Origin: a virus
Taxonomy: Duplodnaviria; Heunggongvirae; Uroviricota; Caudoviricetes
Strand: one strand, 5' to 3'
IMG/VR virus record: IMGVR_UViG_3300031853_000004
Span: 1-37,318 of that record
Length of the DNA stretch: 37,318 nt
Below, piece by piece: positions 16,958-36,374 of the stretch; the stretch's first letter is position 1; each line of letters begins with the position of its first letter. Under the pieces are notes generated by a model. That model made no database searches and was not told where the DNA came from. It worked only from the letters and a program-made list of their open reading frames with translations. Both the position numbers and the translations under genes were made by a program.

Positions 16958-17053
16958 ATTTTCTCCCTTCAATCTATATATATTATACCATATATAGAAG
17001 AAGTTGTCAATAAAAAAATACCTAAAACCTCAAAAAGATTTTAGGTATTTTAC

Positions 17054-17491
17054 TTATTTTTCTTTATTCATTTCAGCAATCTTGCGGCGAGTCTTAATTG
17101 TAGAAGTAACTGTATCTTTAAAATATTTTTCTGCAAAAAAATATACATCTTTACTATGACTTGCTTCTCTTTTAGCAACTTTTACTTGCCGGAGTAGTTT
17201 CTGCATGACAGGATCATCTTTGCTAATGCCAGATTTTAACAGAACATTATATGCATGTTCAACACCAATTGCTCTTTGCTCCATTAACTTGGCTCTATGT
17301 TTTAGTGCTTGAAAATCACATTTACACTCCGCGAAAATAAATCCATCAAGGTCATTTTCAACATCGAGATCCTCATCCGCACAGGTAACTTTGCCGTGAA
17401 ATGTGCCATATTTTGTTTGCTTCGTGACATACGTATCTCTTCCATCTCTTTTGGTATTAAGGATTTTACCTTTCATTATTCTCCTATCCAT
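17054..17491 (-). CDS. Hypothetical protein
   Basis: Track ORF, 145 aa. Confidence 0.7.
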   Translation of the reverse strand: MDRRIMKGKILNTKRDGRDTYVTKQTKYGTFHGKVTCADEDLDVENDLDGFIFAECKCDFQALKHRAKLMEQRAIGVEHAYNVLLKSGISKDDPVMQKLLRQVKVAKREASHSKDVYFFAEKYFKDTVTSTIKTRRKIAEMNKEK

Positions 17492-18237
17492 TCTTCTATA
17501 TCAATTGGAATTTGATAAACCATTGTATACTTATCATTCAAAACTCTTGTATCATGAAAATGACCAAAGAAATATTGTTTAAAATATGGATTTGTTTCAA
17601 ATAAATCAGACATTGAGTCAAGCCATTGTTCTGTTCTATGGTCTACTGTAGATTGATCAATTGAAGATAAAAATAAATCAGAATATAGTGGCTCAAGCTT
17701 TTGCGGAGCAGTGTGCGCTACAACGAAATCAATTGGACTACAATCTAGATTCCAATCAGCTACATAGTCATACAAATCATACATAGACTTCTTATCAAGC
17801 TGTTCATTAATATTATATGGGTATCCATTACGGAGTCTGTAATATTTGTCTACGCTATAGGCACCAGGCAGAAAAAGAAAATAATATCCGTTAATTTCAT
17901 AAATTCCACCTTTATCATTCACATAAAGAATGTTTGGATATTTATTTTGAAAAACTATATTATCTGCAATAGACCTTGACCATCCACTGTCATTGTATTT
18001 TATATGGTCCCAATAACAATTATCATGATTACCACGCATCACAATCCATCTACCAGGGAACTTCTTCGCAGCCTTCTTTGCAGCACCCATAATATGATCA
18101 CCATATTCAAACCCAGCATCCCCAGCTATAATAATAATATCATTCTTTGAAGGTTTATCAATCTTTTTAATAACTTGTTCAATAGCATAAGCGCTACCAT
18201 GAATATCTGCGCAAATAAAAATTCTTCCATTAGCCAT
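17476..18237 (-). CDS. Calcineurin-like metallophosphoesterase
   Basis: ADIHG, AGDAG, RGNHD, AHTAP and FGHFH motifs. Confidence 0.9.
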   Translation of the reverse strand: MANGRIFICADIHGSAYAIEQVIKKIDKPSKNDIIIIAGDAGFEYGDHIMGAAKKAAKKFPGRWIVMRGNHDNCYWDHIKYNDSGWSRSIADNIVFQNKYPNILYVNDKGGIYEINGYYFLFLPGAYSVDKYYRLRNGYPYNINEQLDKKSMYDLYDYVADWNLDCSPIDFVVAHTAPQKLEPLYSDLFLSSIDQSTVDHRTEQWLDSMSDLFETNPYFKQYFFGHFHDTRVLNDKYTMVYQIPIDIEEWIGE

Positions 18238-19953: not shown

Positions 19954-20400
19954 CTAATCCATCCTTTCATAAATATAAGAATCATTTCCAGTATAATAGA
20001 AATGACGAATACCCTTATCCCTCAAAGCTCTTTCACATGCAGGACAAGCTCTTGACAGACCTCTTGAAGTAATACGCCCATTTGAAATTCTGAAAGTATA
20101 AACATGTACGTCCTTCCAGTCAATCTGCTGAGCTACGGGATAGGGGATAGAATTAAGCGCTGCTATCTCTGCATGAGAAGCATGAACCGCAGGCTTTCCA
20201 TCCTGTCTAGAAAACTTACGATAACGCTTATTATAATATTTTTGAGTTGGGCATGTCTTACTACTATTACTACCTTGTCCAATAATATGATGCTTGTAAG
20301 TGATAACACATCCTACATGGAAATGCGGAAAATTAGAACCTTCCGCAACTTCCTTAGCCTTGGTGAACATCCGCAAATCAAAATTAGTAAAGTTAGCCAT
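19954..20400 (-). CDS. Zinc-dependent deaminase (cytidine/dCMP/TadA superfamily)
   Basis: HVGCVI, HAEIAAL and ACPAC zinc-binding motifs. Confidence 0.85.
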   Translation of the reverse strand: MANFTNFDLRMFTKAKEVAEGSNFPHFHVGCVITYKHHIIGQGSNSSKTCPTQKYYNKRYRKFSRQDGKPAVHASHAEIAALNSIPYPVAQQIDWKDVHVYTFRISNGRITSRGLSRACPACERALRDKGIRHFYYTGNDSYIYERMD

Positions 20401-21095: not shown

Positions 21096-21659
21096 TTATC
21101 TCCACCTTCTTGAATATTCATACTCAACAACAGTTGCTGCGCATGCTACATTCAAAGACCGCACACTTCCAAACATTTGAATGTATACCATTTTATCACA
21201 TAGCTCTATTTCTCTCTTGGAAAGTCCATTACTTTCTTCACCAAATAAAAAAGCAGACTTTTTAGGAAAATCCTCATCTAAAATATTGATAGGATTATAT
21301 TCCATAATATTATCTACAGCATAAACTGTATATCCAAGAGAATGGAGATAATCAACAACCTCTTCCAAATCATCACAGTGATAAACATTCTCATAATGAT
21401 TTGTCCCCGCGCAACCTCTAGTATCTAACCTGCGGCGACCTACTACGTAGACTTCTCTACCAAGGAAAGCATTATTACTACGAATCACACTACCTATATT
21501 AATATTATAGTCAACATGTTGAAGAATCATAACAACATCTGTGCGGCGAGGTTGCAAATCAGCCCGCACTTCTTCGGCTAATTGTCCTTTGTAATAATTA
21601 ATTACATTTTCCTTACCAGAGACAATTTTATTTTGACCATAACTATACTTGGTAATCAT
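21096..21659 (-). CDS. SpoU/TrmH-family RNA 2'-O-methyltransferase
   Basis: NIGSVIRS, FGEESNGLS and SLNVACAA SPOUT motifs. Confidence 0.9.
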   Translation of the reverse strand: MITKYSYGQNKIVSGKENVINYYKGQLAEEVRADLQPRRTDVVMILQHVDYNINIGSVIRSNNAFLGREVYVVGRRRLDTRGCAGTNHYENVYHCDDLEEVVDYLHSLGYTVYAVDNIMEYNPINILDEDFPKKSAFLFGEESNGLSKREIELCDKMVYIQMFGSVRSLNVACAATVVEYEYSRRWR

Positions 21660-22084: not shown

Positions 22085-22969
22085 TTATTTCCAAAGACCT
22101 GCATTAAGTGACTCTTGAAGCCCGCACACACTGTCATGGCCGAAATAACCATCAGCTCCGCAATCTCCAACAGAGAAGCCATTATCAATTAGATATTGTT
22201 GAATCTTGGTAGAAGTCTCACGACCCCAGATACCATCAATCTCTGCTCCAACTTCCTCTTGGATTGCACTGACTAGTTGTGAACCATTTTCTTCAAAAGT
22301 AATATTATAAATATTAGAGTAGAATTCTTTATTATCACTATCTTGACCACTGATCCAGCCATCTTCATAAGTGCCTAGTTGATTTTGCCAATCAATAATA
22401 GTATTCCAACCTCCAATACCATCTACATCAAGTGTACCACCATCACGATTGTTCTTTGGATCAGTATTTACACTAGGTTCAGTATCAGAGCTTGCAGAAG
22501 AACTGCCGTTAAATGGAGGCCGCAGTACGTAAGCTACATTCCCTAAAGTACGGTATTTTTCTTGAACCGCATTTCCTACATTGCCTTCAATAGTTGGGAA
22601 ACCATAACCGTCATAGCTACCAGTAGCAAAACCAATATGGTCAGTATAGCTATCCCAATTCCAGTTAAAGATAATAACGTCACCTCTCTGGACGTCATAT
22701 TTATTAACTGAATATTGTCTTGCTCCACCATTTAGAGCAAGATCAGTGTTTTGAGAAGGGAAACCTTTCATGTATACGCCAGCTCTATCTAGAACTCATG
22801 AAGTATACATGCAACACCATCAAATTTCAGAAGAAGGGCCGGCTAACCAATCCTCTCCAGTTATTTCAGCCATCCAACGGCCATATTTAGAGCCACGTTC
22901 AGGATCGTCAGGTGCATAATATCCCAATTCTCCAAAAGCAACTCTCATTACATCTTCAGCTGTCGCCAT
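22085..22969 (-). CDS. CHAP-domain endolysin with C-terminal peptidoglycan-binding repeats, 294 aa (needs TGA=Trp)
   Basis: MATAEDVMRVAFGELGYYAPDDPERGSKYGRW...SEI*WCCMYTS*VLDRAG: TGA at 22820 and 22796 flank the catalytic Cys. GDVIIFNW, DHIG and TIEGN motifs; LDVDGIGG / DGIWG / DGYFG binding repeats. Confidence 0.92.
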
Positions 22970-22981
22970 ATTAATCACTCC

Positions 22982-24019
22982 TTACGCCCATTTTCCATCA
23001 TTTAGGGAACGTTGTAAAGCACAACAGGTATTAAAACCAAAATATCCATCTACTGCTAGACCATAATCAAATCTATTAAGATACTCTTGCATTTTCTTAA
23101 TAGTTTGCGGACCAATGATGCCGTCTACATAAGCACCAATTTGCTCTTGCATAGCTCTAACCATTGGTGAACCAGACTCATCCCATCTTACAGTAGAGAA
23201 ACGTTCCATATACTCTTCATTTGCACTATCCTGACCGTCAATCCAACCATCAACATAAGTGCCGAGCTGTCTCTGTAATTCAGAAATAGTTAGCTCACCT
23301 GCCCAACCATCAATATTAAGTTCCATATCGCCAGGCTCTTGTGGAGTAACCACTGGTTGTTCAGGAGTTCCATTTGGTGAAGTGTTGTTCTTATATCCTT
23401 CCTTAATTCTAGTAGGATAATCAATTTGGCATCAATTACAATCTACATATCCTGAAACATCATCATACACAACGTCACCATCTGAAAGTCTTATACCGCC
23501 TTGCTGCCATAAGCCAGCATCATCGCCATAAGAAGGCCAATTTCTACCTCAAGCTGCGATTCAGTCTGCATATGGAAGTAACTCATCACTATATACGTTA
23601 TTGTTTCAGGTTGAACCATTTACATAGATACCTGAATAAAATCCATTATTATTTAATGTGTCACAGAAAGTCTTAATAACATCTGTAAGAGCTCTGCGAG
23701 AAAGAGCGTATTGGCGTGGATCTTCAACGTCCATGTATACGGGAAGATCGAAAGCTTTACCAGTTAAAAGACCACCAAAGTGTTCTGCATCTTTTCTAGC
23801 TTCTGAAGTACTTGTAGTAACAGTGTAATAATATGCTCCAATATGGAGTCCTGCGGCTTTGGCGTTGCGGTAATGTGTTTCAAAGGAAGAATCTTTATAT
23901 CTTCCACCTTCATTCCCGCCAGCTTTGATAATTACACCCCATAGACCACGCTTATTTTTTCAAGCATTAAAATCTACGTTAGCGTCTCATCGAGAGACAT
24001 CAATGACTAGCTCACGCAT
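22982..24019 (-). CDS. GH25 muramidase endolysin with peptidoglycan-binding repeats, 345 aa (needs TGA=Trp)
   Basis: IDVSR*D, IIKAGG, IGAYYY, YMDVE, D*IAA*, LWQ and VDCN* motifs; six TGAs at 23987, 23960, 23606, 23561, 23549 and 23432; AAAGGAG RBS. Confidence 0.93.
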
Positions 24020-25600: not shown

Positions 25601-25694
25601 AATTTTTCCCCTTTCTCTTTTAAAAATTTATATAAAAATTCTTCTTGGTTTAACAAAAAAGGCTCCCATAAAGGAAGCCTTGAAAGTTCGGTAC

Positions 25695-25769
25695 TGGAGC
25701 TCCGTGAGGGTAACGCTCCCCCGTCTGATGATTACAAGTCAACTGTAATAGCTATTATACTAACGGAGC
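25695..25769 (-). tRNA. tRNA-Thr(UGU)
   Basis: Acceptor GCTCCGT/ACGGAGC, loop CT-TGT-AA, encoded CCA; atypical T-loop AGCGTTA. Confidence 0.85.
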
Positions 25770-26058: not shown

Positions 26059-26196
26059 TAAGAGGAAATAATTAGAATAGTGTAAAATACGCGCTCTACC
26101 CTTGAGCTACAAAAACGTACTGTGCTTTTGGCAAGATTCGAACTTGCAATAACGTGTCTCCTAGACATGAAGTAACTATTCTATCCATCACTCTTA
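26059..26196 (-). ncRNA. Y-RNA-like hairpin RNA 1 carrying a circularly permuted tRNA-like domain (YrlA-like topology)
   Basis: End-paired scaffold encloses, in order, T arm GCAAG-TTCGAAT-CTTGC, acceptor 3' strand CAAAAGC, short loop, acceptor 5' strand GTTTTTG and D arm GCTC-AAGGGTA-GAGC. Confidence 0.75.
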
Positions 26197-26390
26197 TTTA
26201 ATTGTTTTCAAAGTCAATCTATATTTCTATCTTGAGGGTCTGAATGGAAATAATAATCTATCCAACCAAAATCATCTTCATACATCATTTCTAGACATCC
26301 CACTGGAACTCAGATATTTTGATCTTCTTCTTCCATCTTTTGGATTTCATTTATAATCATATGAAAATTATTTTTTGAAAATTTTGCCAT
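26181..26390 (-). CDS. Small acidic hypothetical protein, 69 aa, three TGA
   Basis: MAKFSKNNFHMIINEIQKMEEEDQNI*VPVGCLEMMYEDDFGWIDYY...; GAGGG RBS. Confidence 0.4.
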
Positions 26391-26448
26391 TCATTCCCTC
26401 CTTTTATTATCACTAACTGGATGTTAAAATTTTATATTTCTGGATGCT

Positions 26449-26544
26449 TGGCAGCCCCGTCCTGTACCGCCCAGGAATAGACGAGTTTGGACCTCGCCAC
26501 ATGGTTTTGAAGACCATCTCGGTTCTTAACCGATAAGCGGGGCT
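26449..26544 (-). tRNA. Opal-decoding tRNA, anticodon UCA, long variable arm (suppressor / Sec-like)
   Basis: Acceptor AGCCCCG/CGGGGCT + G + CCA; D stem TCGGTT/AACCGA; anticodon arm ATGGT-CTTCAAA-ACCAT (anticodon 26508-26510); variable arm GGCGAG/CTCGTC; T arm TCCTG-GGCGGTA-CAGGA. Confidence 0.88.
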
Positions 26545-26546
26545 AG

Positions 26547-27290
26547 TTATATTTTCATCCATTCTTCAAAAGAATATTTTTCAATATCCCTCCTTAATTT
26601 AGGTAATTTATAAGCTACACACCATTTTTTAATAGTCGTATCTGAAACATTAAAACGCTTACCTAATTCAACAAAAGAATTATTATAAACCATTTCTTTA
26701 AAACTTTCTCGGTCAGGTCTTTCCACAGTTCTTTGAAGAAAAGAAACACACTCAGGACAATGAACACTTGTTAATTTAATTTCTTTTCCACATCTTTTAC
26801 AATAATTTTTCTTTTTTGGTTTTTGATTATGTTTTTTATTCTTACTTCCAAAAGTATCTAACTGTCTATCACAATTAGGACATACCCATCTTAAATTTTC
26901 TAATCTATTATCGTTATGAACACCATTTATGTGATCTAAAGTTAAAGTTAATTCTTTATTATTTCAAAAAGGTTCCTGTCCACAAATAGAACATTTATAA
27001 TTATTCTTTGTAGTAAAATCATCTTTAAAATGTTTTCTAATATAACCCGATGAAGCGTTTGAATCTTTGCAGAATGAATTTTCAAAAGTTCTTTCTTCTT
27101 TATTTGAAGGTATTATTGTGAAATGACTATAATCTATATCGTAATTATCTAACCTTGTTTTTATAACTTTTGAAACATTCCCTGTTAAAGATTGATAACC
27201 TAAATTTTTCGCTAATTGTATAAAATTTGTAGACTTTTTAACTCAATCTTCTAATTCTTCTTTTGAAAAATTATCAACTCTTGCTACCAT
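26547..27290 (-). CDS. HNH homing endonuclease with zinc fingers and C-terminal HTH, 247 aa (needs TGA=Trp)
   Basis: Absent from track. CSICGQEPF*NNKELTLTLDHINGVHNDNRLENLRWVCPNCD; TGA at 27243 and 26964. Confidence 0.9.
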
Positions 27291-27479
27291 TTTTATCTTC
27301 CAATCTCTTCCAAATAAACAACAATAATATTAAATAAGTAAGAAGCGTTGGAAGATTCGCTTTCAGCAAGTTAGCTATTTCTTGCCTATCTTACTTATTT
27401 ATAAATAAAAATTTTAGATGACTTTAGCCGCGTATGCGTTGATGACATGAACCGCGTAGAGGTATCATCCTGTCATGTC

Positions 27480-27552
27480 TCTACCTGGTTGGACTCGAAC
27501 CAACGATTTCCTCGTCCCAAGCGAGGAGCCTTAGCCACTGGGCCACAGGTAG
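27480..27552 (-). tRNA. tRNA-Pro(UGG)
   Basis: Acceptor CTACCTG/CAGGTAG; CCTCG-CTTGGGA-CGAGG; GTTGG-TTCGAGT-CCAAC; no encoded CCA. Confidence 0.9.
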
Positions 27553-27582
27553 TTTTATTTATTCTTTAAAAAGAGACTATTA

Positions 27583-28218
27583 AAAAGTTTCTTGCGACCT
27601 TCGCCGTACTCTTTTATTGTGTGTTAATTTTCAGTCACGTAGGAGATAAAAGTGAGCCATACGGAGCGACCGCATAACTTTTTACCCCAGTCTAAAGCTA
27701 TAAAATACACAGGTGTATTTTATATTCTCCATTGAAGGATAACTTTATTACCAAATCTACGCCAGGATTGATTACAAACTGGAACTTTCACCCATCATTC
27801 ACAAAATAATATCATATCTTCAAATGATCTTCCGTATGCCATTTTACCGCAGGCTTCGCGTTTTTTCATTCCAGCTTTGGGCTACTTGTACATTGACCTC
27901 GTCTTATTGATATATTACTATATCTTAACTGGAAACTCTCTTATTGGTATTTCCAACGTTCCTGCTTTGGGCACCACCCCGCACAGACGTTTGGATTCAA
28001 ATCCCGCTGGGACGCCTATTATGAGAGCGACGAGACACTACCTTTTAATCGCACAATAATCGAGCGCTACCTACATTTCGTTGAAATCATTTAATTTCTT
28101 CTTACTATTGGATTACTCCAACAATAAAAGCCAACCATCTAAAGTATCCCATAGATTTCGACTTACTGAGTAGATACGCATGACCGCATGATATTGCGAA
28201 TACACATGCTTCAAAAAC
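27583..28218 (-). ncRNA. Large structured ncRNA of about 630 nt, ROOL-like
   Basis: No long minus-strand ORF, higher GC and many hairpins. 5' TTGAAG..CAATATCATGCGGT..GTAAGTCG, central AAGTAGCCCAAAG and 3' GGTCGCTCC..GGCTCA..GAGTACGGCGAAGGT resemble ROOL as I recall it. Size and tRNA-cluster location fit. Needs a covariance-model search. Confidence 0.62.
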
Positions 28219-28250
28219 TTTTTAATATTCTCTTTTCAAAGAATATTTAA

Positions 28251-28329
28251 GATAAGAGAAATACTAAAGAAAGAAAAATCCTACACCGTAACCTATGAAT
28301 TGAAGTATCTTTCTTTCAATCATCTTATC
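28251..28329 (-). ncRNA. Y-RNA-like hairpin RNA 2 (minimal)
   Basis: GATAAGA-TGATTG-AAAGAAAGA-TACTTCA ... TTCTTTCTTT-AGTA-TTTC-TCTTATC. Confidence 0.7.
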
Positions 28330-28362
28330 AAGAATATATTTCTCACCAAATATATTCTTTTT
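28330..28362. terminator. AT-rich hairpin between hairpin RNAs 3 and 2 (terminator or processing site)
   Basis: AAGAATATATT / AATATATTCTT inverted repeat followed by T's on the plus strand. Confidence 0.4.
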
Positions 28363-28369
28363 GTACACA

Positions 28370-28498
28370 TTTAGAAAGGAAATACTAGAAATAGTACAAT
28401 ACGCTTCTGCTCGTGAAGTGAAGGAAGTGAGCTTTAATTTAAATATTTTTTAAATACTTTTATCATTTGAAGTAACTATTTCTCAATCACTTTCTAAA
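28370..28498 (-). ncRNA. Y-RNA-like hairpin RNA 3
   Basis: TTTAGAAAG-TGATTG-AGAAATAGT-TACTTCA ... ACTATTTCT-AGTA-TTTC-CTTTCTAAA; starts just downstream of a consensus promoter. Confidence 0.75.
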
Positions 28499-28502
28499 TA
28501 AT

Positions 28503-28531
28503 ATTATAATATATTATTTTAATTTTGTCAA
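28503..28531 (-). promoter_or_regulatory. Consensus sigma70 promoter driving hairpin RNA 3 and downstream RNAs
   Basis: TTGACA (28526-28531), 17 nt, TATAAT (28503-28508). Confidence 0.85.
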
Positions 28532-28540
28532 GAACTTTTT

Positions 28541-29032
28541 TTACTCATCCTCTAAATTAATTTCAGTACAAAAACAAATTGCATCGTCACCAATGTCAAA
28601 AACATCACGAGCAATATTTTCTGCTAAAGTTGACTCAGCACCATAAAAATCACTTAAATCATCGTTAAAAAATGAAAGGACTTCACGATTAAAAATGACG
28701 TAGTTAACAGGACCATTTTGTGCAGGAGTAACAGTCTCAATTCGGTTCAGAATTGGATTTCCAGCAAAAGCATTGCGGAAAAGTGTAATACGATTAACAA
28801 AATCTTCATTTGCAGGAATTACTGTTACTTTTACAGTGACATTACCAAAAGTCTTTTCTTTAGGAACAATAGCTGCAATTGCATCTGCTTTTACATAATT
28901 ATCTACATAAATCTTAATTTCTTTATCGTCATTTTGATATACAACAGTAACTTCTGGATCTTTTGAAAAAAGAGTATCAATCTTTCTTGCAAAAGTAACC
29001 CAAGGCGTTGATAGACCTAGAATATCTGTCAT
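28541..29032 (-). CDS. Hypothetical protein (likely start MTDILG)
   Basis: Track ORF 28541..29047; AAGGAG RBS; sits among the hairpin RNAs. Confidence 0.75.
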   Translation of the reverse strand: MTDILGLSTPWVTFARKIDTLFSKDPEVTVVYQNDDKEIKIYVDNYVKADAIAAIVPKEKTFGNVTVKVTVIPANEDFVNRITLFRNAFAGNPILNRIETVTPAQNGPVNYVIFNREVLSFFNDDLSDFYGAESTLAENIARDVFDIGDDAICFCTEINLEDE

Positions 29033-29110
29033 ATAAACTCCTTTCATTTCCTTATATTATATAAAAAATAAATATATTAAATTATATTATTTTGCCCTAA
29101 AAATTTTATA

Positions 29111-29217
29111 ATGCGGAAATATTTAAAATAGTTGTTACTGTTAGAATCGAACTAACTTTATTTGATTAAGAGTCAAAGGCTTTCCATAAGCGAAGTAACT
29201 ATTTTACCATCACGCAT
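29111..29217 (-). ncRNA. Y-RNA-like hairpin RNA 4 carrying a tRNA-Lys(CUU)-like cloverleaf
   Basis: ATGCG-TGATGG-TAAAATAGT-TACTTC, D-like GCTT-ATGGA-AAGC, anticodon arm TTTGA-CTCTTAA-TCAAA, T arm GTTAG-TTCGATT-CTAAC, then AGTAACA-ACTATTTTA-AATA-TTTC-CGCAT. Confidence 0.78.
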
Positions 29218-29234
29218 TATTTTCGTTTAATAAT

Positions 29235-29335
29235 GAAAAGGAAACAATAAAGATAGTATATTTTACGAATAGCAGGTTTTGGCGCTATTTTCTTTTAAAA
29301 TAATCCTTGAAATAACTATCTTTCCATCACTTTTC
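29235..29335 (-). ncRNA. Y-RNA-like hairpin RNA 5
   Basis: GAAAAG-TGATGG-AAAGATAGT-TATTTCA ... ACTATCTTT-ATTG-TTTC-CTTTTC. Confidence 0.72.
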
Positions 29336-29380
29336 TCTATATATTTATAAATTTTAAATATTAATTAATAAAAAAATATC

Positions 29381-29503
29381 CTACTTTTTCTCTAACTTTC
29401 TAATTTTTCTATCAATCTTACGAATAACACCACTACCTTCTGTATTCTTACCATTTTGTAGCAATCTATTACGTTTCTCGATTAATACTTCTAAATGTGA
29501 CAT
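29381..29503 (-). CDS. Small basic peptide, 40 aa
   Basis: MSHLEVLIEKRNRLLQNGKNTEGSGVIRKIDRKIRKLEKK; GAGAAAG upstream. Confidence 0.55.
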   Translation of the reverse strand: MSHLEVLIEKRNRLLQNGKNTEGSGVIRKIDRKIRKLEKK

Positions 29504-29518
29504 TAAAATTCTTTCTCT

Positions 29519-30536
29519 AAGAGTTGGTACCGCTTTTTTGGCAAGCGGTCAGCCATTTAAGTTAGAACATTGGAACCACCTTCTTTAATAGAAAACTTTA
29601 AGTTTATCGTATAACTTAAAAGCGCAATGGAACCATCTCCTTTCTCAAGAATAGTTCTAACATAATTAATAAAACGTCCCTAGCAGAGCAAGTTACTAAG
29701 GCTCTGACACCGCATTTTCGGGTATGCGGTGACCATCCGACCTCTTGCGGAGTCACTATGATAGATTAGTTTAAACAGATACGCCACGTGAAGGCTCTAT
29801 CATGTATCCATAACGCAGTAATTTCACCACGCGTAGCTACTATTACCACTCGCACAACTGTTTGTATGCCTACTACCCAGCTGTCCCTTTAATAAAGGTT
29901 AGTGCTAACTAGACTATTTTAACCAATTAAACTACCATGCCAGGCGCGGCACAGGTTGGATTTGAACCAACAGCTTTCCAGTTTATAGTTGATATTTTTA
30001 CCTTTTAAACTATTACTTCGCACAATCGAAGTAAACGGCTTTCGATACCGTATCTCCAACTTTTAATTCCCTTTTGTGGCCTGTGGGATAACAGACTTCG
30101 ACGACCTCTAGACCACGATTTATTTTAAAGTCTGCACGGTATTTGAGGCACTCCGCAGACTACTAATGAAACCGACCTACATCTTAATTTCTATAGCGCG
30201 TAGATACTCCGCGTTCATTCACATCGCTTCCCATCCGCGCATATTGTTTTGTAACGATTCATATTTAATGTCTACATCGTTACAAGCAGACAAAAATTTT
30301 GGCTTTGCAACACTTTTTAGAGGTCCAGCTTCCACTAATTCTATCCTCTAGAGCTTCCGCAAGTGATCAATCTCGCTATTCTGGAACATCCTTTGGCTTT
30401 CACTCTGCCAACCAGATGGGTGTTTGCGCTCTGAAAAGTTTTCGGCCGATTCTTTCCAGTTGCTCTTGCCAATTAAAGCAAAGAGAGATTTTTATCGTCA
30501 GCTATCTAATAAGTAGTAAGGCAATTTTCAACTCTT
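29519..30536 (-). ncRNA. About 1,018-nt end-paired structured ncRNA (GOLLD-like or novel) with embedded tRNA-like parts
   Basis: Starts about 20 nt after a consensus promoter. 5' AAGAGTTG pairs perfectly with 3' CAACTCTT. No credible minus-strand ORF; many hairpins. Confidence 0.55.
29945..30022 (-). pseudogene. Degenerate tRNA-like element inside the 1-kb RNA
   Basis: D-like AGTTTAAAAGGTAAAA and intact T arm GTTGG-TTCAAAT-CCAAC; anticodon and acceptor stems poorly paired. Confidence 0.45.
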
Positions 30537-30557
30537 TTCCCTCTTTTCTTTACTAAT

Positions 30558-30586
30558 ATTATATCATATAATTTTTGGTTTGTCAA
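30558..30586 (-). promoter_or_regulatory. Consensus sigma70 promoter upstream of the 1-kb ncRNA
   Basis: TTGACA (30581-30586), 17 nt, TG-A-TATAAT (30558-30563). Confidence 0.85.
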
Positions 30587-30715
30587 GAAGTTTTTTTGAA
30601 ACTCTAAAATATTTTTTATTAGATTTTAATCACTTCCTTTCTTTTACTTTAATTATATTATACAATATCTTTTTAAGTTTGTCAAGAAAAAATTTTTCTT
30701 GACTTGAAAATTCTT

Positions 30716-30791
30716 TGGAGCGGATGACGGGCAACGATCCCGCAACCTCTGCCTTGGCAAGGCAGCACTCTACCAATTGAACTACATCCGC
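30716..30791 (-). tRNA. tRNA-Gly(GCC)
   Basis: Acceptor GCGGATG/CATCCGC + T + CCA; CTGCC-TTGCCAA-GGCAG; T-loop ATCGTTG. Confidence 0.92.
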
Positions 30792-30794
30792 GTT

Positions 30795-30911
30795 AAAAAA
30801 GAGAGAACAGAATCGAACTGCTCCAGAAGACCAGGCTATAACAGCAACATGTTCTTCTCACTACCAATTGAATTAAATATCAGTGTTATTAATTAATATC
30901 TCTCTCTTTCT
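30795..30911 (-). pseudogene. Distorted tRNA-like sequence
   Basis: D-loop-like TTCAATTGGTAG, T arm GCAG-TTCGATT-CTGT and terminal GAGAGAGA/TCTCTCTT pairing, but no standard anticodon arm. Confidence 0.4.
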
Positions 30912-31014
30912 CTTTATTAATATTATATCATAATTTTTTCTGGTATGCAAGAATTTTTTTCTTTTTACAAAGAAAATTTTTATTAAGTGTTTTACCTTTT
31001 AAACTAACCGCCCG

Positions 31015-31050
31015 CGGAGGACAGTACCGGAGTCGAACCAATATCTCCTA
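31015..31050 (-). other. Isolated tRNA 3'-half-like fragment (T arm plus acceptor strand)
   Basis: ATTGG-TTCGACT-CCGGT-ACTGTCCTCC directly after a promoter, with no D or anticodon arm. Confidence 0.4.
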
Positions 31051-31119
31051 ACCTTTATTAATATTATATCATTAATTTTTATGGAAGTCAAGTATTTTTT
31101 TCCAAGAGAAAAGAAAAAT

Positions 31120-31395
31120 TTAAAGGACTAATTGCGGACCTTCATGTTTTTCATTCTTACTATGTAAATCAATAGCATCGACCGCATAATCATCTAAATT
31201 TTCAATTACTTTAGCAAGTTCTTCTTGTTTTTCTGGAGAAATAGCAAATAAATTATCTGATGTAATTTTTTCTACATCATTCATCCAACTTTCTACGTCA
31301 AAAAATTTTCCCTCATTGTGATCTGCGAAAATTTTATTAAAAATATACTGTTGTTGCGCTCCTGAAAAAATCATTGCTTTTTCTTGATCGGTCAT
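31120..31395 (-). CDS. Hypothetical protein
   Basis: Track ORF; TAATG coupling to the upstream gene. Confidence 0.7.
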   Translation of the reverse strand: MTDQEKAMIFSGAQQQYIFNKIFADHNEGKFFDVESWMNDVEKITSDNLFAISPEKQEELAKVIENLDDYAVDAIDLHSKNEKHEGPQLVL

Positions 31396-31922
31396 TAAAA
31401 TAAAACCTCCGTAAATTCTTTAACAAATTCATCTGATATCTTTTTAACTATTGTTGAAAAATTAGAATCAAAAAGATTTTTTAAAGTATTATAATTATCG
31501 TTTGCCTGTTTAAGATCAATAAATAAATCATCTATCTTCTCTTGGAGGAGTAAATTATCAGACATAGCCTTCTCATATTCTTCTGTTAATAAATCAAAAT
31601 CTTTTATTAATTCTTCGTTTTCATTTTCTAAATCTTCGATATACTCTGACTGGTCATTAATAATATCAATTAATTCTTCTTTTGAACAATCTTCTAAAGA
31701 AGGCTCTTCATAGCACTTTTCTTCATCTTCCATATTGCTAATTAGATTATCTATAGCCTCATCAGGGGTATCTCCCACACCATGATAAATATAAAAATTA
31801 TCACCATCTTCATCATCAATAAGACACGTCGTATGATACTTATCATCTATAGAACTATCTCTTTCTATAATAAAAGTTGTAGTATCATCTAGTTTTGCAG
31901 TCATTCTTTTTTGATTAAACAT
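31395..31922 (-). CDS. Acidic coiled-coil hypothetical protein
   Basis: Heptad-like acidic C-terminal half. Confidence 0.72.
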   Translation of the reverse strand: MFNQKRMTAKLDDTTTFIIERDSSIDDKYHTTCLIDDEDGDNFYIYHGVGDTPDEAIDNLISNMEDEEKCYEEPSLEDCSKEELIDIINDQSEYIEDLENENEELIKDFDLLTEEYEKAMSDNLLLQEKIDDLFIDLKQANDNYNTLKNLFDSNFSTIVKKISDEFVKEFTEVLF

Positions 31923-31923
31923 T

Positions 31924-32718
31924 TTAAATCCTCTCCTTTTTATACTCTATATTTTTACTTTTTAAATCACGAGCAATTTCAACAAACTGCTCACATTTAT
32001 TGCAAGATGATCCGCGCGCACACCGATATCCGCAATTCATTTTTGATTCAATAAAGTTAGGAATTAAACTTTCATTTGGAATATCTATTTCCAAATCTTT
32101 GTATATATATTTTAAATTTTCACGCCATTCTTGTCTTTCAAACCAGATTCTATATAAAGTACCAATCTTCACCCAAGAATTAACATTAAATTCTCCAACG
32201 TCAATATATTTAGATAACTCTTCTATACATTCTGGTATAAAAATTGGGGCTTTTGGATTAATGCCTTTATCAAATCTTTTACTTGGAATCTCATTTAAAA
32301 TTAATCTAGTTTGAACATTATTCTTTTCACATATATTTTTTACATACTCTAAATTATAACACAAATCATCGCATACATAAATATCTGTAGTTCCTAAAAT
32401 TATTTGTTCTTCCAATAGAGAAAGAGAAGAAGGTGCGGAGCTTGCGTTAAAGAAAAACTTTAAGCCTCTTTTTTTCATTTCTTCTACAACTTTATAGGAT
32501 AAATCAATTTTAAAATAAATAAAAGGATTAATGTTGTCTATAGCTTCCATTTGTTGATAATTCATATTATCTGGTTGAATATTAAACCTAATATCTTTAT
32601 ATTTTGAAACAAAATCAAATAACTTATCAAAATTATTGCGAAGTTCATTAAATGTAATGTTATATTCATTACCATATCTATTTTTAACATCCGTTGATCA
32701 AGGAATTGCTACTTTCAT
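31924..32718 (-). CDS. Hypothetical protein, 264 aa, TGA at codon 7, C-terminal Cys cluster
   Basis: Track ORF 31924..32565 extends in frame through TGA (32698-32700) to ATG 32718 with an AAAGGAGG RBS; KMNCGYRC...CNKC. Confidence 0.7.
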
Positions 32719-34570
32719 AATCCCTCCTTTCATTATACCGATAGTAAGAAAGATTGTCTATTTCATTTAAAACATGCATTACTTCTTTGTTTAGCATAAA
32801 TCCATTTTTAGTATTGAGCCAATAAAAATAAGAATTCTTATCTCCGACTGTATTAAAAATTTTAATATTTCTAGTAACTGAAACAAAGTCTCTATACGGA
32901 ACTTTATTTATATTTAAAATATCCGCTTTTATTAAAGCATTTGGTACAGTTTTTATTATATAATGATCGCCGCAAAAGAAACCTTCTTTACTCAATGTAT
33001 GTTTTATATGTTTTTCATTAAACATTTTTCTTATAAAATCTTGTCTTTTTTCATATGAATCAAAAGATTTTGAAGTATTAGAAAGTATTAAATTATGTGA
33101 ATTAGCTAAACAATTATTTATTTTTTCATAACAATCTTCATTCTTTGCAAATATTAAAAAAGATGAATCTATTTTAGATAAAAATTTAGTTCTGCTTATA
33201 ATACGATTTTGCCCCGGAAAGACCAAAGCATCGTCTTTACATTCTTCAGAACATAAATGATATTTATTATCATTACTATAATTAATAACTCCGCAAATTG
33301 GACATTTCCTTCCAAACGAGCAGTCTTCACAAATTTTCTCTGAACCTAAATAAGGCTCTTCATAATCATAGTCATAATCATCTGTTTCAATGCGTTGTCC
33401 GCAACATATACAAGTATTCTTACCGCTCAAATTTATCCTCAAACCTTTTGTTACATTACGACAACACCAATATTTAAAAGATGTATCTTCAATCATGTCA
33501 TTATACATACCATTAGTATAAATTACAATCTTCTTACTCTTGTAATGATAATTTGGGGAACAATAATCTTTTAAAAAAGAATTATTATGAAAATTTTTAA
33601 TATCTTTATATTGTTGATTTTTAAACCTATACGTCCATCCAAACGATTTTTCAACAACCTCCCGCATAAAATCTAAAGCTGCTAAAGAGATTTCTTCTTT
33701 ATAGTATGGATATGACTTACCAGTTAAAATCATTTGTTTGTGACAATAGATCAAACTCCGCCAACTTTTATTTGGCATTATTAGCTTATTATCTTCATCT
33801 AAAGTAATGCTAAAATTTTTCTTAGCTTCAAGATATGCTACTACTGCGACATTGCTATTCATCATTTCAATTGTTCCAGCACTATGACATCCTGGATTGA
33901 TCCATGACATACAAGAAGTCCAATTACATTGATTATCACTCATAGTCATAAAATCAATTGGATTAATGCTTAAAACCAAAGTAGCTTCATTAATATTGTT
34001 AGAATTAGCGGTATTAATATCATTACGCCATTCGTTAAATAATTTAACATTGTCATAACTTAAAGCTTTTATACATTTTTGAATAGTTCTGATAGTCTTA
34101 GCACCTTTTCTAACAGAAAAACTATAATGTTCAAGTTTAAAATTATAGTCAATATATCCATCAATAATATACATTGGATTAAACATATTTAAAATATATA
34201 TTTTTTCTTCATTACTTATATTAGGATAATCAATAATATAAAGGAAAAAATCTTCATAAAAATCTTTTTCCATTTTTTTATTCTTGATAGCTCTTTTGTA
34301 AAAATCTAAGTCATAATCAGTCGTTAAATAATTGTATTCATATATAGATTGAAGTTGTCTAGCTATATATCCGCTATCTTTTTTTAATTTAATTTTCTTT
34401 TTAATTCTTAACTGATTTCCAAAAGCATGATATAATCTACGTTTAGCATAATTCCACTCTCTTAGAACAATATCAAGTGGCCCGCATTTACAATTATTAA
34501 AAAGATAAATATATTTGCGGATATTGTATCTATCTTGCTTTGTAAGACTATCAAGAGGTTGATTTTTCAA
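32684..34570 (-). CDS. Large phage hypothetical protein with zinc-finger-like Cys pairs
   Basis: 628 aa; LSINPIDFMTMS..WTSC motif and three CxxC pairs. Confidence 0.8.
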   Translation of the reverse strand: MKNQPLDSLTKQDRYNIRKYIYLFNNCKCGPLDIVLREWNYAKRRLYHAFGNQLRIKKKIKLKKDSGYIARQLQSIYEYNYLTTDYDLDFYKRAIKNKKMEKDFYEDFFLYIIDYPNISNEEKIYILNMFNPMYIIDGYIDYNFKLEHYSFSVRKGAKTIRTIQKCIKALSYDNVKLFNEWRNDINTANSNNINEATLVLSINPIDFMTMSDNQCNWTSCMSWINPGCHSAGTIEMMNSNVAVVAYLEAKKNFSITLDEDNKLIMPNKSWRSLIYCHKQMILTGKSYPYYKEEISLAALDFMREVVEKSFGWTYRFKNQQYKDIKNFHNNSFLKDYCSPNYHYKSKKIVIYTNGMYNDMIEDTSFKYWCCRNVTKGLRINLSGKNTCICCGQRIETDDYDYDYEEPYLGSEKICEDCSFGRKCPICGVINYSNDNKYHLCSEECKDDALVFPGQNRIISRTKFLSKIDSSFLIFAKNEDCYEKINNCLANSHNLILSNTSKSFDSYEKRQDFIRKMFNEKHIKHTLSKEGFFCGDHYIIKTVPNALIKADILNINKVPYRDFVSVTRNIKIFNTVGDKNSYFYWLNTKNGFMLNKEVMHVLNEIDNLSYYRYNERRDYESSNSLINGC

Positions 34571-34580
34571 AATTAAACTC

Positions 34581-34799
34581 CTAATCTAGTATAGTATCTA
34601 GTACAGTATCAATCCAATTTTTCGCTTCATCATCAAGCAAATCATAAATAATATATCCATTACTTAAATAAATATCAAGTCTAACCGCAATCTCTTCTAT
34701 TGGATCACCACTTAATAGTGTATATTCAAACCTTTGTTGGCTATCGTTTTTTACAAAATCTTGAAACATTAGAGAATCTTCAATATTCATTCCAAACAT
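34581..34799 (-). CDS. Hypothetical protein
   Basis: Track ORF; AAAGGA RBS; promoter upstream. Confidence 0.65.
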   Translation of the reverse strand: MFGMNIEDSLMFQDFVKNDSQQRFEYTLLSGDPIEEIAVRLDIYLSNGYIIYDLLDDEAKNWIDTVLDTILD

Positions 34800-34860
34800 T
34801 TTTTTTCCTTTCTCTTTTACTTTAATAATTATAACATATTTTTAGTAAGCTGTCAAGAAT

Positions 34861-34896
34861 AAAAAAAATAGCCCTAAAGAAAAAATCTTTAGGGCT
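34861..34896 (-). terminator. Rho-independent terminator after the Ro60 gene
   Basis: AGCCCTAAAGA / TCTTTAGGGCT 11-bp stem followed by a T tract on the minus strand. Confidence 0.8.
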
Positions 34897-34922
34897 TCAC
34901 CAAGAAGAAAGGGGAAACAACA

Positions 34923-36374
34923 TTAACCGAAGCTAATGTTATTTATAAGATTGACAATGTTCTCTTTTCCATTTACTAAATCAATATATTTAAATATTGA
35001 ATCATTTAAAGAAGTTAAGAACATAAAATTATCAGATGGAGGTTCGATCTGACCATCATAATTTGCTAAATCAAAACTGTATGTCATGATATTGCCATAT
35101 CTTTTATTCCAATTATAAATTGAATCAGTTCTAGATCCGGCATAATAGCTATTATAATTAGTCCAAAAAATTTGCATATCACTTATAACAAAAATTCTAT
35201 CATAAGTATCTTTCATTATTTCAATTGCAGATTGTATGTTAGTACCCCATCCACAATTACTATTACTACACATAGCATCAATGATACTAAAAGGATTATT
35301 TAATCTAGAAAAATTATTAAATCTTTTAGCGTCGGTACCAAATTTAATAAAATCTATATTTGAACCATTTAAGAATAACGCAGTCGCGAAACAAGCTCCA
35401 ATTTCTTTTAAAGTTATATTACTATTTGAACTAATATAATTTTCCATAGAACCAGATACATCAAGTACAATAGCATTAATACCATCAAATTTAGGGATAT
35501 TATAAGTTGCAATTCCAAAAGCTCTTCCAAGAGCCTCCTCAATTAAAAGATTATTAATCTTTAAATTTTTATGTGCAGTATAAATTCGATATGGAAAAAC
35601 TAATGATTTACGAATTTTATTTTCATTAATAAGTTGAGGATAAAGATATTCCCCAATCCATTCATTGTCAATATTTGGATTATCAAGAATATTATTTAAA
35701 TTGCGGAGAAGCGCCATGTATCCAAGTTTACCTTCTTCAACCATTTCCTTCCAGGTTGCTTGACGTGATTCCTTAGACTGTTTCTTTGCAACACTAACCT
35801 CCCAAGTATCTGGAGCTTTAAGAAGGTTATTCTTAAAATCATTAATAACTTTTGAATTTGCATGTGTAAGATTAATTAAATCATACATATTATACGTATG
35901 ACCAATCATTTTATATTTAGTAATTTCATACTGTCCAAGAGAAGAAAGATAATTAGCAGAACCTTTAATTAAAGCATGAGATCTCTTTCCATCAAGATAT
36001 TTAACAGCACCAAAGATTTCTGAAACATCATCAGGACGCCGCATAAAACTACGATAAAATTCTCTTTTCTCTTGGAAAGATTTATCATTAAGCCATGCGG
36101 CGATTAGTTGTGAGACAGACCGCATTCCAAGTTCATTACGAGCAAAAATTGCGGCTTTGCCTACAAATGCATAATCATATTGGTCAGCAACAGCTTCTGT
36201 CAGATTTAAAAGTCTATCAATTTGATCTGAAGACTTTTCGTAATATTGATTTTCTAAGAAAGATGAAAAAAGCATATTAAACCAAGCTTCTACAGTATTT
36301 CTTTTATAAAGGATAGTTCCTTCATATGATTGCACTCGTTCTTGAACTTTCTTTTCATTAAACTTTGCCATCAC
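34923..36374 (-). CDS. rsr: Ro60 / TROVE-vWA RNA-binding protein (Rsr-like)
   Basis: TROVE features (FLENQYYE, AIFARNELGMRS, RRPDD, ITKY, LTH, PDTWE, GYMALLRNL, PYR) followed by a vWA MIDAS LDVSGSM, T and FVISDMQ. Confidence 0.9.
   Translation of the reverse strand: MMAKFNEKKVQERVQSYEGTILYKRNTVEAWFNMLFSSFLENQYYEKSSDQIDRLLNLTEAVADQYDYAFVGKAAIFARNELGMRSVSQLIAAWLNDKSFQEKREFYRSFMRRPDDVSEIFGAVKYLDGKRSHALIKGSANYLSSLGQYEITKYKMIGHTYNMYDLINLTHANSKVINDFKNNLLKAPDTWEVSVAKKQSKESRQATWKEMVEEGKLGYMALLRNLNNILDNPNIDNEWIGEYLYPQLINENKIRKSLVFPYRIYTAHKNLKINNLLIEEALGRAFGIATYNIPKFDGINAIVLDVSGSMENYISSNSNITLKEIGACFATALFLNGSNIDFIKFGTDAKRFNNFSRLNNPFSIIDAMCSNSNCGWGTNIQSAIEIMKDTYDRIFVISDMQIFWTNYNSYYAGSRTDSIYNWNKRYGNIMTYSFDLANYDGQIEPPSDNFMFLTSLNDSIFKYIDLVNGKENIVNLINNISFG

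What the first reader, a model, noticed from the sequence alone, without database searches (positions are those of the whole stretch)
26059..36374. Phage Ro60 with a five-member family of Y-RNA-like hairpins carrying interchangeable cargo
Seen: five minus-strand elements (26059-26196, 28251-28329, 28370-28498, 29111-29217, 29235-29335) share the scaffold stem1-TGAT(G/T)G-stem2-TA(C/T)TTC...stem2'-ANT(A/G)-TTTC-stem1'. Stem sequences differ between copies yet keep pairing, which is compensatory variation within one genome, while the internal loop is conserved. Apical cargo differs: permuted tRNA, tRNA-Lys cloverleaf, AU-rich or pyrimidine-rich loops, or minimal. A TROVE-vWA gene lies 5.6 kb away. 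Established: Ro60/Rsr binds an end-paired bulged stem of Y RNAs, and bacterial YrlA RNAs mimic tRNA. Inference: a modular phage RNP in which one protein displays several RNA baits or adaptors, possibly against tRNA-cleaving defences. The loop does not literally match the Y-RNA consensus as I recall it, so Ro60 binding is unproven.
Basis: partly seen in the sequence, partly recalled or inferred. Interest (0 to 1): 0.93.

Follow-up and report, generated by a model that had tools for sequence, protein, structure and literature searches.

The report
Phage Ro60 with modular Y RNAs
This uncultured 143-kb phage encodes a Ro60 ring protein and five small hairpin RNAs that share one conserved double-stem "handle" but carry different tips (tRNA look-alikes, a whole tRNA, plain loops). 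They are a new sequence subtype of the known Y RNAs, and the same handle accompanies Ro60 genes in dozens of related phages.

Summary
Exactly five minus-strand elements in the 143.5-kb genome share the scaffold stem1, bulged U, invariant G-C/A-U, asymmetric loop, stem2, UUACUUC, cargo, stem2', NNNN-UUUC, stem1'. A covariance model built only from other phages recovers these five and nothing else (46-69 bits). Covariation is strong: 96-97% of cells are paired against 61-71% in shuffles, and 13 of 15 pairs show double changes.

The gene at 34923-36374 is a true Ro60: Pfam TROVE, a vWA domain with a MIDAS motif, and TM 0.66-0.74 to solved Ro60 structures.

The scaffold tracks Ro60. All 10 other records found through the RNA alone encode TROVE. 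Of TROVE phages found through the protein, 35 of 42 carry 1-7 elements, including 17 of 17 that are at least 90% complete. In at least 19 loci the elements lie directly upstream of the Ro60 start, including phages whose Ro60 is only 32% identical.

The best reading is lineage-specific phage Y RNAs, comparable to YrlA/YrlB/Yrn1 and to Thermus phage phiLo Yrl1/2. Their handle lacks the canonical CGAA motif and matches no Rfam family.

The scan has noted this family before on other DNA (e1-1601681). I rate it a new variant of a known kind.

The parts
26059..26196 (-). Element E1: the handle plus a circularly permuted tRNA-like domain in the order T arm, closed 7-bp acceptor-like hairpin, D arm (YrlA topology).
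   Evidence: R1 70.2 bits and R2 58.1 bits. Rfam YrlA 37.4 bits, E 1e-5, below the gathering score of 69. Fold.
28251..28329 (-). Element E2: a minimal member with about 26 nt of cargo and the ATACTTC variant of the post-stem motif. It ends 18 nt before ROOL.
   Evidence: R1 60.3 bits and R2 46.1 bits. The cargo motif is shared with L065 2093-2167.
28368..28500 (-). Element E3: the handle plus an AU-rich hairpin and a hairpin with a pyrimidine-rich loop. Its closing stem extends to 11 bp.
   Evidence: R1 80 bits and R2 61.2 bits. Fold z -2.5. It lies immediately downstream of a 12/12 consensus promoter.
28503..28531 (-). Consensus sigma-70-type promoter (TTGACA, 17 nt, TATAAT). The predicted start falls at the base of E3's closing stem, and the promoter probably drives E3, E2, ROOL and tRNA-Pro as one transcript.
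   Evidence: (12 of 12 matches) and the sequence. A like promoter precedes the Ro60-adjacent element of G003.
29108..29220 (-). Element E4: the handle enclosing a native-order tRNA-Lys(CUU) cloverleaf at 29131-29200. The 5' acceptor strand overlaps the UUACUUC motif, the 1-72 position is an A-A mismatch, and no CCA is encoded.
   Evidence: ARAGORN. Rfam tRNA 51.7 bits. R1 72.7 bits and R2 69.4 bits. Fold z -3.1.
29235..29335 (-). Element E5: the handle (UUAUUUC variant) with a simple hairpin as cargo.
   Evidence: R1 75.5 bits and R2 57.1 bits. Fold.
34923..36374 (-). Ro60 ortholog of 483 aa (TROVE HEAT-repeat ring plus a vWA domain with the MIDAS motif D-x-S-x-S). It contains no in-frame TGA.
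   Evidence: Pfam TROVE 2e-14 and VWA_2 1.3e-5. PDB profile hit to phiLo Ro60 (9KOP/9L5Y), E 2.9e-38. AlphaFold model pLDDT 83; the top 13 PDB matches are all Ro60/Rsr, with TMq 0.60-0.74. DVSGS is invariant in 33 homologs.

Best explanation
The five elements are phage-encoded Y RNAs, small non-coding RNAs whose shared handle is the docking module for the phage's Ro60 ring protein. The handle consists of paired 5' and 3' ends, a bulged U, invariant G-C and A-U pairs, an asymmetric internal loop, a second helix and the single-stranded UUACUUC motif. The tips are exchangeable effector modules. E1 carries a permuted tRNA mimic (YrlA type) and E4 a native-order tRNA-Lys(CUU) body (Yrn1-like topology). 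E3 carries a pyrimidine-rich or AU-rich hairpin (YrlB/Yrn2 type), and E2 and E5 carry minimal hairpins. By analogy with characterised systems (Deinococcus and Salmonella Rsr-Y RNA-PNPase; Thermus phage phiLo Ro60-Yrl-PNPase), each Y RNA would sit on the outer face of the Ro60 ring. There it would gate the central cavity and tether Ro60 to a different partner enzyme or RNA, so that one protein forms several distinct RNPs early in infection. The tRNA-shaped modules most plausibly engage tRNA-recognising enzymes, including the phage's own RNA repair and modification set. Shown here: the conserved, covarying structure, the family's distribution, its linkage to Ro60 genes, consensus promoters, and the Ro60 fold. 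Inferred: binding, stoichiometry, processing, partners and biological role.
For: (1) Structure. Two helices are supported by compensatory changes in 13 of 15 pairs, with 96-97% of cells paired against 61-71% in shuffles and 44-59% when slid.

(2) Independent recovery. A model built only from elements beside Ro60 genes of other phages finds exactly these five in the window.

(3) Co-occurrence in both directions. Every record found through the RNA alone encodes TROVE: G001-G007, G050 and G051. Of 42 TROVE records found through the protein, 35 have R1 hits, including 17 of 17 that are at least 90% complete; the seven without hits are 4-72% complete fragments.

(4) Adjacency. Within 10 kb of Ro60, all 62 hits are on the Ro60 strand. 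In 18 loci the arrays end 10-760 nt before the Ro60 start codon. The same holds in G003 with its own promoter, in G006 and in provirus G051, whose Ro60 is only 32% identical. Variant elements also occur in G050, whose Ro60 is 28% identical.

(5) Specificity. ROOL, another RNA of the island, is present in only 5 of 20 near-complete relatives. In 845 kb of decoy viral loci that share part of the motif, only two TROVE-bearing records hit.

(6) Y RNA hallmarks from the literature. Species have two or more Y RNAs, one tRNA-like and one a hairpin with a pyrimidine-rich loop, and the 5' strand carries the conserved motif (PMC4201824). E1 matches Rfam YrlA at E 1e-5. The handle keeps the bulged pyrimidine followed by G-A that is seen in GGUC-C-GA and GN-C-GA-A.

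(7) The protein is a genuine Ro60.

(8) Precedent. phiLo Ro60 binds two phage Y-like RNAs encoded upstream of its gene (PMC12135203).
Against: The canonical Ro60-contact motif (GGUCCGA, GNCGAAN0-1G or CGAA) is absent. The handle reads GUGAYNG, and the best-conserved block, UUACUUC, has no counterpart in described Y RNAs, so which part contacts Ro60 is unknown. In this genome the elements lie 5.6-8.7 kb from Ro60, inside a tRNA/ncRNA island rather than beside the gene. Most positive records belong to one broad clade of roughly 140-kb phages, so co-occurrence is partly shared descent. E4 scores as a normal tRNA and might simply be processed into a working tRNA-Lys.
Confidence: 0.8

Rival explanations
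1. The handle is a Ro60-independent processing or stabilising cassette of the tRNA/ncRNA operons, for example a double-stranded clamp recognised by RNase III or RNase P/Z that defines the ends of small RNAs. On this view it co-occurs with Ro60 only because both are inherited in the same phage clade.
For: In this window the elements sit among tRNAs, ROOL and other structured RNAs in long promoter-driven units with few terminators. Some enclose complete tRNAs: Val and Thr in G001, Lys here. They lie 5.6 kb or more from Ro60.
Against: A plain clamp does not explain the invariant internal-loop bases (UGA, UUUC) or the UUACUUC block, which are kept at 64-79 of 82 unique copies while the stems vary freely. 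It also does not explain repeated placement directly upstream of Ro60 in lineages down to 32% protein identity. Ordinary tRNAs in the same arrays lack the handle.
Confidence: 0.08
2. The handle docks a different phage protein, such as an RNA ligase, a kinase or the conserved 628-aa neighbour of Ro60, and Ro60 is only a bystander in the same early gene module.
For: RNA ligase, an AAA_33 kinase, a phosphoesterase, a deaminase and a SpoU methylase lie in the same 37 kb. A 628-aa ORF of no known family follows Ro60 in 12 relatives. The canonical Ro60 motif is missing.
Against: The 628-aa ORF is found in only 12 of the 54 loci screened, whereas TROVE is present in every element-bearing record. Arrays abut the Ro60 start codon itself. 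Ro60 proteins are the one family known to use such end-paired, bulged RNAs.
Confidence: 0.07
3. The elements are cis-acting leaders that let Ro60 autoregulate its own mRNA rather than trans-acting RNAs.
For: In at least 19 loci the arrays lie in the 5' region of the Ro60 transcript, on the same strand.
Against: In this genome and its closest relatives (G005, G008) a protein-coding ORF occupies the position upstream of Ro60, and the elements lie kilobases downstream in a separate promoter-driven unit. Two to nine diverged copies with tRNA-like cargo are not expected of a leader.
Confidence: 0.03

Closest known systems
Bacterial and mycobacteriophage YrlA/YrlB (Rfam RF02553) and Deinococcus Yrn1/Yrn2, bound by Rsr (Chen et al. 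2014, PMC4201824)
   Same: Both are encoded with a Ro60 ortholog, often just upstream of it. The 5' and 3' ends pair into a stem with a bulge or loop, and the conserved bases lie on the 5' strand. Each genome has several Y RNAs, one with a tRNA-like domain and one a hairpin with a pyrimidine-rich loop. E1 has the YrlA permuted order and E4 the Yrn1-like native order.
   Different: The handle sequence is GUGAYNG ... UUUC plus UUACUUC instead of GNCGAAN0-1G. There are two covarying helices rather than one. Only E1 touches the Rfam model, at 37 bits against a gathering score of 69. Genomes hold up to 9 paralogs. The cargo includes complete tRNAs and a bare Lys anticodon stem-loop.
Thermus phage phiLo Ro60 with Yrl1/Yrl2 (NAR 2025, PMC12135203; PDB 9KOP, 9L5Y)
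   Same: Both are phage-encoded Ro60 proteins with phage-encoded stem-bulge-stem RNAs. phiLo Ro60 is the closest solved structure to this protein (profile E 2.9e-38, TMq 0.66). Binding and a ternary complex with host PNPase were shown experimentally there.
   Different: phiLo has two RNAs with a CGAA motif. Models of the present family find nothing in phiLo (best 11.5 bits). The aligned proteins are about 22-25% identical.
Listeria phage CKA15/P100: three very highly transcribed non-coding regions less than 2 kb upstream of an Rsr-like gene (mSystems 2025, PMC12282133)
   Same: This is a roughly 130-kb phage with tandem promoter-driven hairpin RNAs next to the tRNA region and upstream of a Ro60-like ORF. 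It supplies expression evidence for an analogous arrangement.
   Different: P100's three hairpins share a different motif (AACAGCAAUUACUA) and a single stem. R1 finds nothing significant there. The P100 protein matches the Ro60 profile only at E 1e-3. Earlier scan notes link that handle to Dictyostelium Class I RNAs, but no Rfam family other than YrlA or tRNA overlaps any of the five elements here.

Membership tests
Y RNA (Ro60-associated ncRNA, functional class) | Encoded in a genome with a Ro60 ortholog, typically close to it | tested here: met
   Ro60 lies 5.6-8.7 kb away in this window. In relatives the arrays directly abut the Ro60 start. Co-occurrence is 17 of 17 in complete genomes.
Y RNA (Ro60-associated ncRNA, functional class) | The 5' and 3' ends pair into a long stem interrupted by a bulge or internal loop; size about 80-130 nt | tested here: met
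   RNAalifold and the pair counts support the structure. The window elements are 79-138 nt.
Y RNA (Ro60-associated ncRNA, functional class) | Conserved Ro60-contact motif on the 5' strand (GGUCCGA, GNCGAAN0-1G or CGAA) | tested here: not met
   The motif is GUGAUGG, GUGAUUG or GUGAUAG in 57 of 82 unique copies. Only the bulged pyrimidine plus G-A is shared. The published motifs are taken from PMC4201824 and PMC12135203.
Y RNA (Ro60-associated ncRNA, functional class) | Physically bound by Ro60 and stabilised by it | not testable with these tools
   No RNA-protein modelling or experimental data are available here.
Y RNA (Ro60-associated ncRNA, functional class) | Accumulates as a discrete small RNA | not testable with these tools
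The only indirect evidence is a 12/12 consensus promoter placed at the base of E3's stem.
YrlA (Rfam RF02553) | Score at or above the family's gathering threshold (69 bits) | tested here: not met
   E1 scores 37.4 bits (E 1e-5, or 4e-7 on the short stretch). E2-E5 give no hit.
YrlA (Rfam RF02553) | Permuted tRNA-like domain: T arm, closed acceptor-like stem, D arm | tested here: met
   This holds for E1 only. At least 16 of 82 unique family members have this order.
Ro60 / TROVE protein | TROVE HEAT-repeat ring plus a C-terminal vWA domain with a MIDAS motif | tested here: met
   Pfam TROVE 54 bits against a cut-off of 23; VWA_2 26.2 bits, just under its cut-off of 27. D305-x-S307-x-S309 is invariant. 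The fold matches all solved Ro60 structures at TMq 0.60-0.74.
Functional tRNA (for the cargo of E4) | Cloverleaf scoring above the tRNA thresholds | tested here: met
   Rfam tRNA 51.7 bits against a gathering score of 29; ARAGORN calls tRNA-Lys(CUU).
Functional tRNA (for the cargo of E4) | Free, fully paired acceptor end that can be matured and charged | tested here: inconclusive
   The 1-72 position is an A-A mismatch and no CCA is encoded. The acceptor strand continues into handle helix 2. Whether RNase P can release it is unknown.

The most novel reading that the evidence does not exclude
The handle is a universal adaptor that lets one Ro60 ring display a host-tuned panel of tRNA bodies and anticodon stem-loops (Lys-CUU, Val, Thr and Ser-like). 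These would act as decoys or sensors for host tRNA-cleaving defence nucleases, or would deliver cleaved tRNAs to the phage's ligase, kinase and phosphatase repair set. On this view the cargo repertoire of each phage mirrors the defence repertoire of its host.
Probability: 0.15. Interest if true: 0.85.

Novelty: new variant of a known kind. Interest (0 to 1): 0.6.

Why it matters
Ro60-Y RNA particles are conserved from bacteria to humans, where Ro60 is a lupus and Sjogren autoantigen, but what the variable Y RNA module does is still poorly understood. This phage family offers a natural experiment: one invariant handle with dozens of swapped modules, well over 100 copies across about 46 phage records. 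The modules include complete tRNAs, permuted tRNA mimics and bare anticodon hairpins. The family gives a covariance model suitable for a new Rfam entry. It also defines a Ro60 recognition element that departs from the canonical CGAA motif, and it provides defined RNA-protein pairs for binding and structural work. Finally, it links Ro60 with RNA-repair genes, suppressor tRNA and ROOL in a clade of stop-codon-recoded phages.

Tried and rejected
K-turn or C/D-box reading of UGAUGG: rejected, because the 3' strand has no GA (it reads NNNN-UUUC).

Hammerhead reading of UGAUG: rejected, because there is no GAAA core or third stem.

Sarcin-ricin reading of AGUA: rejected, because those four bases vary.

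Other Rfam families: a permissive scan of the island returned only YrlA and tRNA over these elements.

Repeat or mobile element: rejected, because the copies keep their pairing through different sequences and not through sequence identity.

A single-protein search of IMG/VR for Ro60 found nothing; an alignment query was needed.

The loose 5'-motif pattern gave mostly chance matches in viral contigs.

R1 was tested and found absent in Thermus phage phiLo, crAss-like cr111_1, a 635-kb megaphage (one marginal hit far from TROVE) and Listeria phage P100.

ROOL as the true partner of the elements: rejected, because it occurs in only 5 of 20 relatives.

A Terminase_6N search, meant to anchor a survey of TROVE-less relatives, found no match, and I did not pursue that survey.

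PHROGs and Pfam gave nothing for the ORFs next to Ro60.
Full report
SETTING. The window is the first 37.3 kb of a 143,542-bp IMG/VR phage record that CheckV rates as complete. Positions 25.6-31.1 kb on the minus strand form a non-coding RNA island. It holds tRNAs for Met, Pro, Gly and Lys plus a Thr-like one. It also holds a full-length ROOL RNA at 27575-28233 (284 bits), several perfect sigma-70-type promoters and further tRNA-like pieces. Late genes, including the GH25 and CHAP lysins, contain in-frame TGA codons, whereas the Ro60 gene has none.

OBSERVATION. Read on the minus strand, the five elements all follow one order: stem1, UGAU(G/U)G, stem2, (U/A)UA(C/U)UUC, cargo, stem2', A-N-U-(A/G), UUUC, stem1'. 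A strict motif scan with a closing-stem test over the whole genome finds only these five. Their minimum-free-energy folds form the nested two-helix handle.

I found relatives by a motif scan of IMG/VR. I aligned 17 elements from four genomes (A2).

Model R1, built from that alignment, finds the five window elements at 60-80 bits and no other match at E <= 1 in the 143 kb. Because R1 contains the window's own copies, I built R2 from 62 elements lying within 10 kb of Ro60 genes in other phages (A5). Run with filters off, R2 again finds exactly the five at 46-69 bits, and the next hit scores 18 bits.

Pair counts give 97.1% (A3) and 96.5% (A5) standard pairs. Column shuffles give 71% and 61%, and sliding the partner gives 44-59%. 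There are 116 and 272 cells with changes on both sides, and 0 of 500 shuffles reach the observed values. These alignments were fitted to the model, which favours the structure, but the MAFFT-only alignment A2 gives the same picture.

THE PROTEIN. ORF 34923-36374 matches Pfam TROVE (2e-14) and VWA_2. A profile of five orthologs hits the Thermus phage phiLo Ro60 structures 9KOP and 9L5Y at E 2.9e-38, and Xenopus Ro60 weakly. An AlphaFold model (pLDDT 83, pTM 0.80) has all solved Ro60/Rsr structures as its 13 best PDB matches: phiLo, Xenopus, human and Deinococcus, with TMq 0.60-0.74. The MIDAS motif D-x-S-x-S is invariant. More than 2,000 homologs exist in metagenomes, many on contigs of 125-147 kb. 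No cultured phage has a relative above 30% identity.

LINKAGE OF THE RNA FAMILY TO Ro60. Three lines of evidence bear on this.

(a) Starting from the RNA. Every record with true elements encodes one TROVE ORF. This holds for G001-G005, G006 and G007, and for G050 and G051. The last two were the only records hit in 845 kb of decoy loci that share part of the motif.

(b) Starting from the protein. Of 42 further TROVE records (42-52% identity; one short fragment at 26%), 35 carry 1-7 elements. This includes 17 of 17 records that are at least 90% complete, and the seven without hits are 4-72% complete fragments.

(c) Position. Within 10 kb of Ro60, all 62 hits are on the Ro60 strand, and in 18 loci the arrays end 10-760 nt before the start codon. 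In G003 a consensus promoter is followed about 10 nt later by an element with a permuted tRNA-like cargo, and then by Ro60. In G006 four elements precede the gene. In provirus G051 (Ro60 32% identical) two short variants end about 20 nt before the ATG. G050 (Ro60 28% identical) has variant elements that keep UUACUUC.

In this window and its nearest relatives a small ORF occupies the upstream slot, and the elements lie 5-6 kb beyond the other end of Ro60. ROOL, by contrast, is present in only 5 of 20 near-complete relatives, so the elements track Ro60 and not the island as a whole. One caveat applies: most records belong to one broad clade, so part of the co-occurrence is shared descent. The repeated but not universal adjacency, and the 28-32% identity outliers, argue for a functional tie.

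ANATOMY ACROSS 82 UNIQUE COPIES.
- The base before the bulge is G in 78 of 82 copies. UGA follows in 80 of 82 copies; the fifth to seventh positions vary (GUGAUGG 26, GUGAUUG 19, GUGAUAG 12, GUGAUGA 9, and C at position 5 in 10).
- The 3' strand ends UUUC in 70 of 82 copies.
- The block after helix 2 is (G/C)UUACUUC in 64 of 82 copies and GAUACUUC in 9.
- Conservation therefore lies mainly on the 5' strand, as in described Y RNAs, where Ro60 contacts mostly that strand (PMC4201824).
- The bulged pyrimidine followed by G-A recalls GGUC-C-GA (vertebrates) and GN-C-GA-A (YrlA). The literal motif is absent, however, and UUACUUC has no described counterpart. Which block touches Ro60 is open.

CARGO CLASSES.
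- Permuted tRNA-like domains: at least 16 copies, including E1.
- Complete native-order tRNAs: Val-UAC and Thr-UGU in G001, and Lys-CUU in E4.
- A bare Lys(CUU) anticodon stem-loop (L065 1974-2055).
- A few other anticodon-like hairpins.
- T-arm-only forms.
- About 30 short hairpins of 61-90 nt.
- Pyrimidine-rich loops (E3 and one G005 element).

MECHANISM. Shown here: a structured, selected RNA family with its own early-type promoters, whose presence and position follow a bona fide Ro60 gene. Inferred from Deinococcus/Salmonella RYPER and from phiLo Ro60-Yrl-PNPase (PMC12135203): the handle docks on the Ro60 ring, and the variable module recruits partners or gates the cavity.

The same 37 kb encodes an RNA ligase, an AAA_33 kinase, a calcineurin-type phosphoesterase, a deaminase and a SpoU methylase. 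In Salmonella, rsr and yrlA lie in the RtcBA repair operon that responds to damaged tRNAs (PMC7790460, listed). A role in tRNA surveillance or repair, or as decoys for anticodon nucleases, is therefore plausible. It rests only on context and on the Lys, Val and Thr cargo.

COMPARISON WITH KNOWN SYSTEMS. Phage Ro60 with Y RNAs is known: YrlA-like RNAs were reported in 22 phages (PMC4201824), and phiLo Yrl1/2 were shown to bind (PMC12135203). In Listeria phage CKA15, three very abundant transcripts upstream of an Rsr-like gene were suggested to be Y RNAs (PMC12282133). The present handle is a different sequence family. R1 finds nothing in phiLo, a crAss-like TROVE phage or P100, and only E1 touches Rfam YrlA, below threshold. 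P100 carries its own three-hairpin family with the motif AACAGCAAUUACUA.

Earlier notes of this scan describe the same two-helix family on related DNA (e1-1601681) and many other Ro60-plus-handle pairings. I re-derived the family independently here.

VERDICT. I rate this a new variant of a known kind, with binding and function still to be tested.

Noticed in passing
window 27575-28233 (-): A full-length ROOL RNA (Rfam RF03087, 284 bits) starts 18 nt after element E2 and is followed by tRNA-Pro. It is probably co-transcribed from the promoter at 28503-28531. In G001, ROOL is likewise flanked by two elements, but only 5 of 20 near-complete relatives have ROOL.
   Followed up: partly
window 26449-26544 (-); L065 1868-1963: A candidate opal-suppressor tRNA with anticodon loop CUUCAAA (UCA) and a long variable arm (Rfam tRNA-Sec 25 bits, E 0.11). 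A homolog in G001 is called tRNA-SeC(tca) by ARAGORN and sits between two Y-like elements. In-frame TGA codons occur in the lysins (22085-24019), in the 520-aa ORF and in the HNH ORF, but not in Ro60.
   Followed up: partly
window 27417-27479 (-): A weak match to the HDV-like ribozyme of F. prausnitzii (RF02682, 23.9 bits against a gathering score of 44, E 0.3) lies directly 3' of tRNA-Pro. It may be a processing element or a chance match.
   Followed up: no
window 30964-31058 (-) and 29892-30019 (-): Further tRNA-like modules without the handle. One is a promoter-driven permuted T-arm/D-arm RNA (YrlA 22.7 bits, E 0.2). Another is a degenerate tRNA (27.8 bits) inside a structured non-coding stretch of about 1 kb (29.5-30.5 kb).
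   Followed up: no
window 6724-7659, 15950-16972, 17476-18237, 19954-20400, 21096-21659 (all -): An RNA repair and modification gene set: RNA_ligase (PF09414), an AAA_33 kinase, a calcineurin-like phosphoesterase, a cytidine deaminase-like protein and a SpoU methylase.
   Followed up: partly
window 32684-34570 (-): A 628-aa ORF just downstream of Ro60 with no Pfam or PHROG match. It is conserved at the same relative position in 12 related loci (31-44% identity).
   Followed up: partly
window 26547-27290 (-): An HNH endonuclease ORF of 247 aa with two in-frame TGA codons is embedded in the ncRNA island between the suppressor-like tRNA and tRNA-Pro. Homologs occur in the ncRNA islands of some relatives.
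   Followed up: no
L360 (Listeria phage P100, reverse strand, about 400-700 of the locus): Three tandem hairpins with variable closing stems and the shared motif AACAGCAAUUACUA lie behind a consensus promoter, directly upstream of a 508-aa ORF that matches the Ro60 profile weakly (E 1e-3). These are probably the abundant transcripts reported for phage CKA15. They are a different handle family from the one in this window.
   Followed up: partly
window 25698-25769 (-): A tRNA with anticodon UGU (Thr) scores 47.6 bits in Rfam but is missed by ARAGORN. It is followed by the only strong terminator-like hairpin of the island (25659-25681).
   Followed up: no
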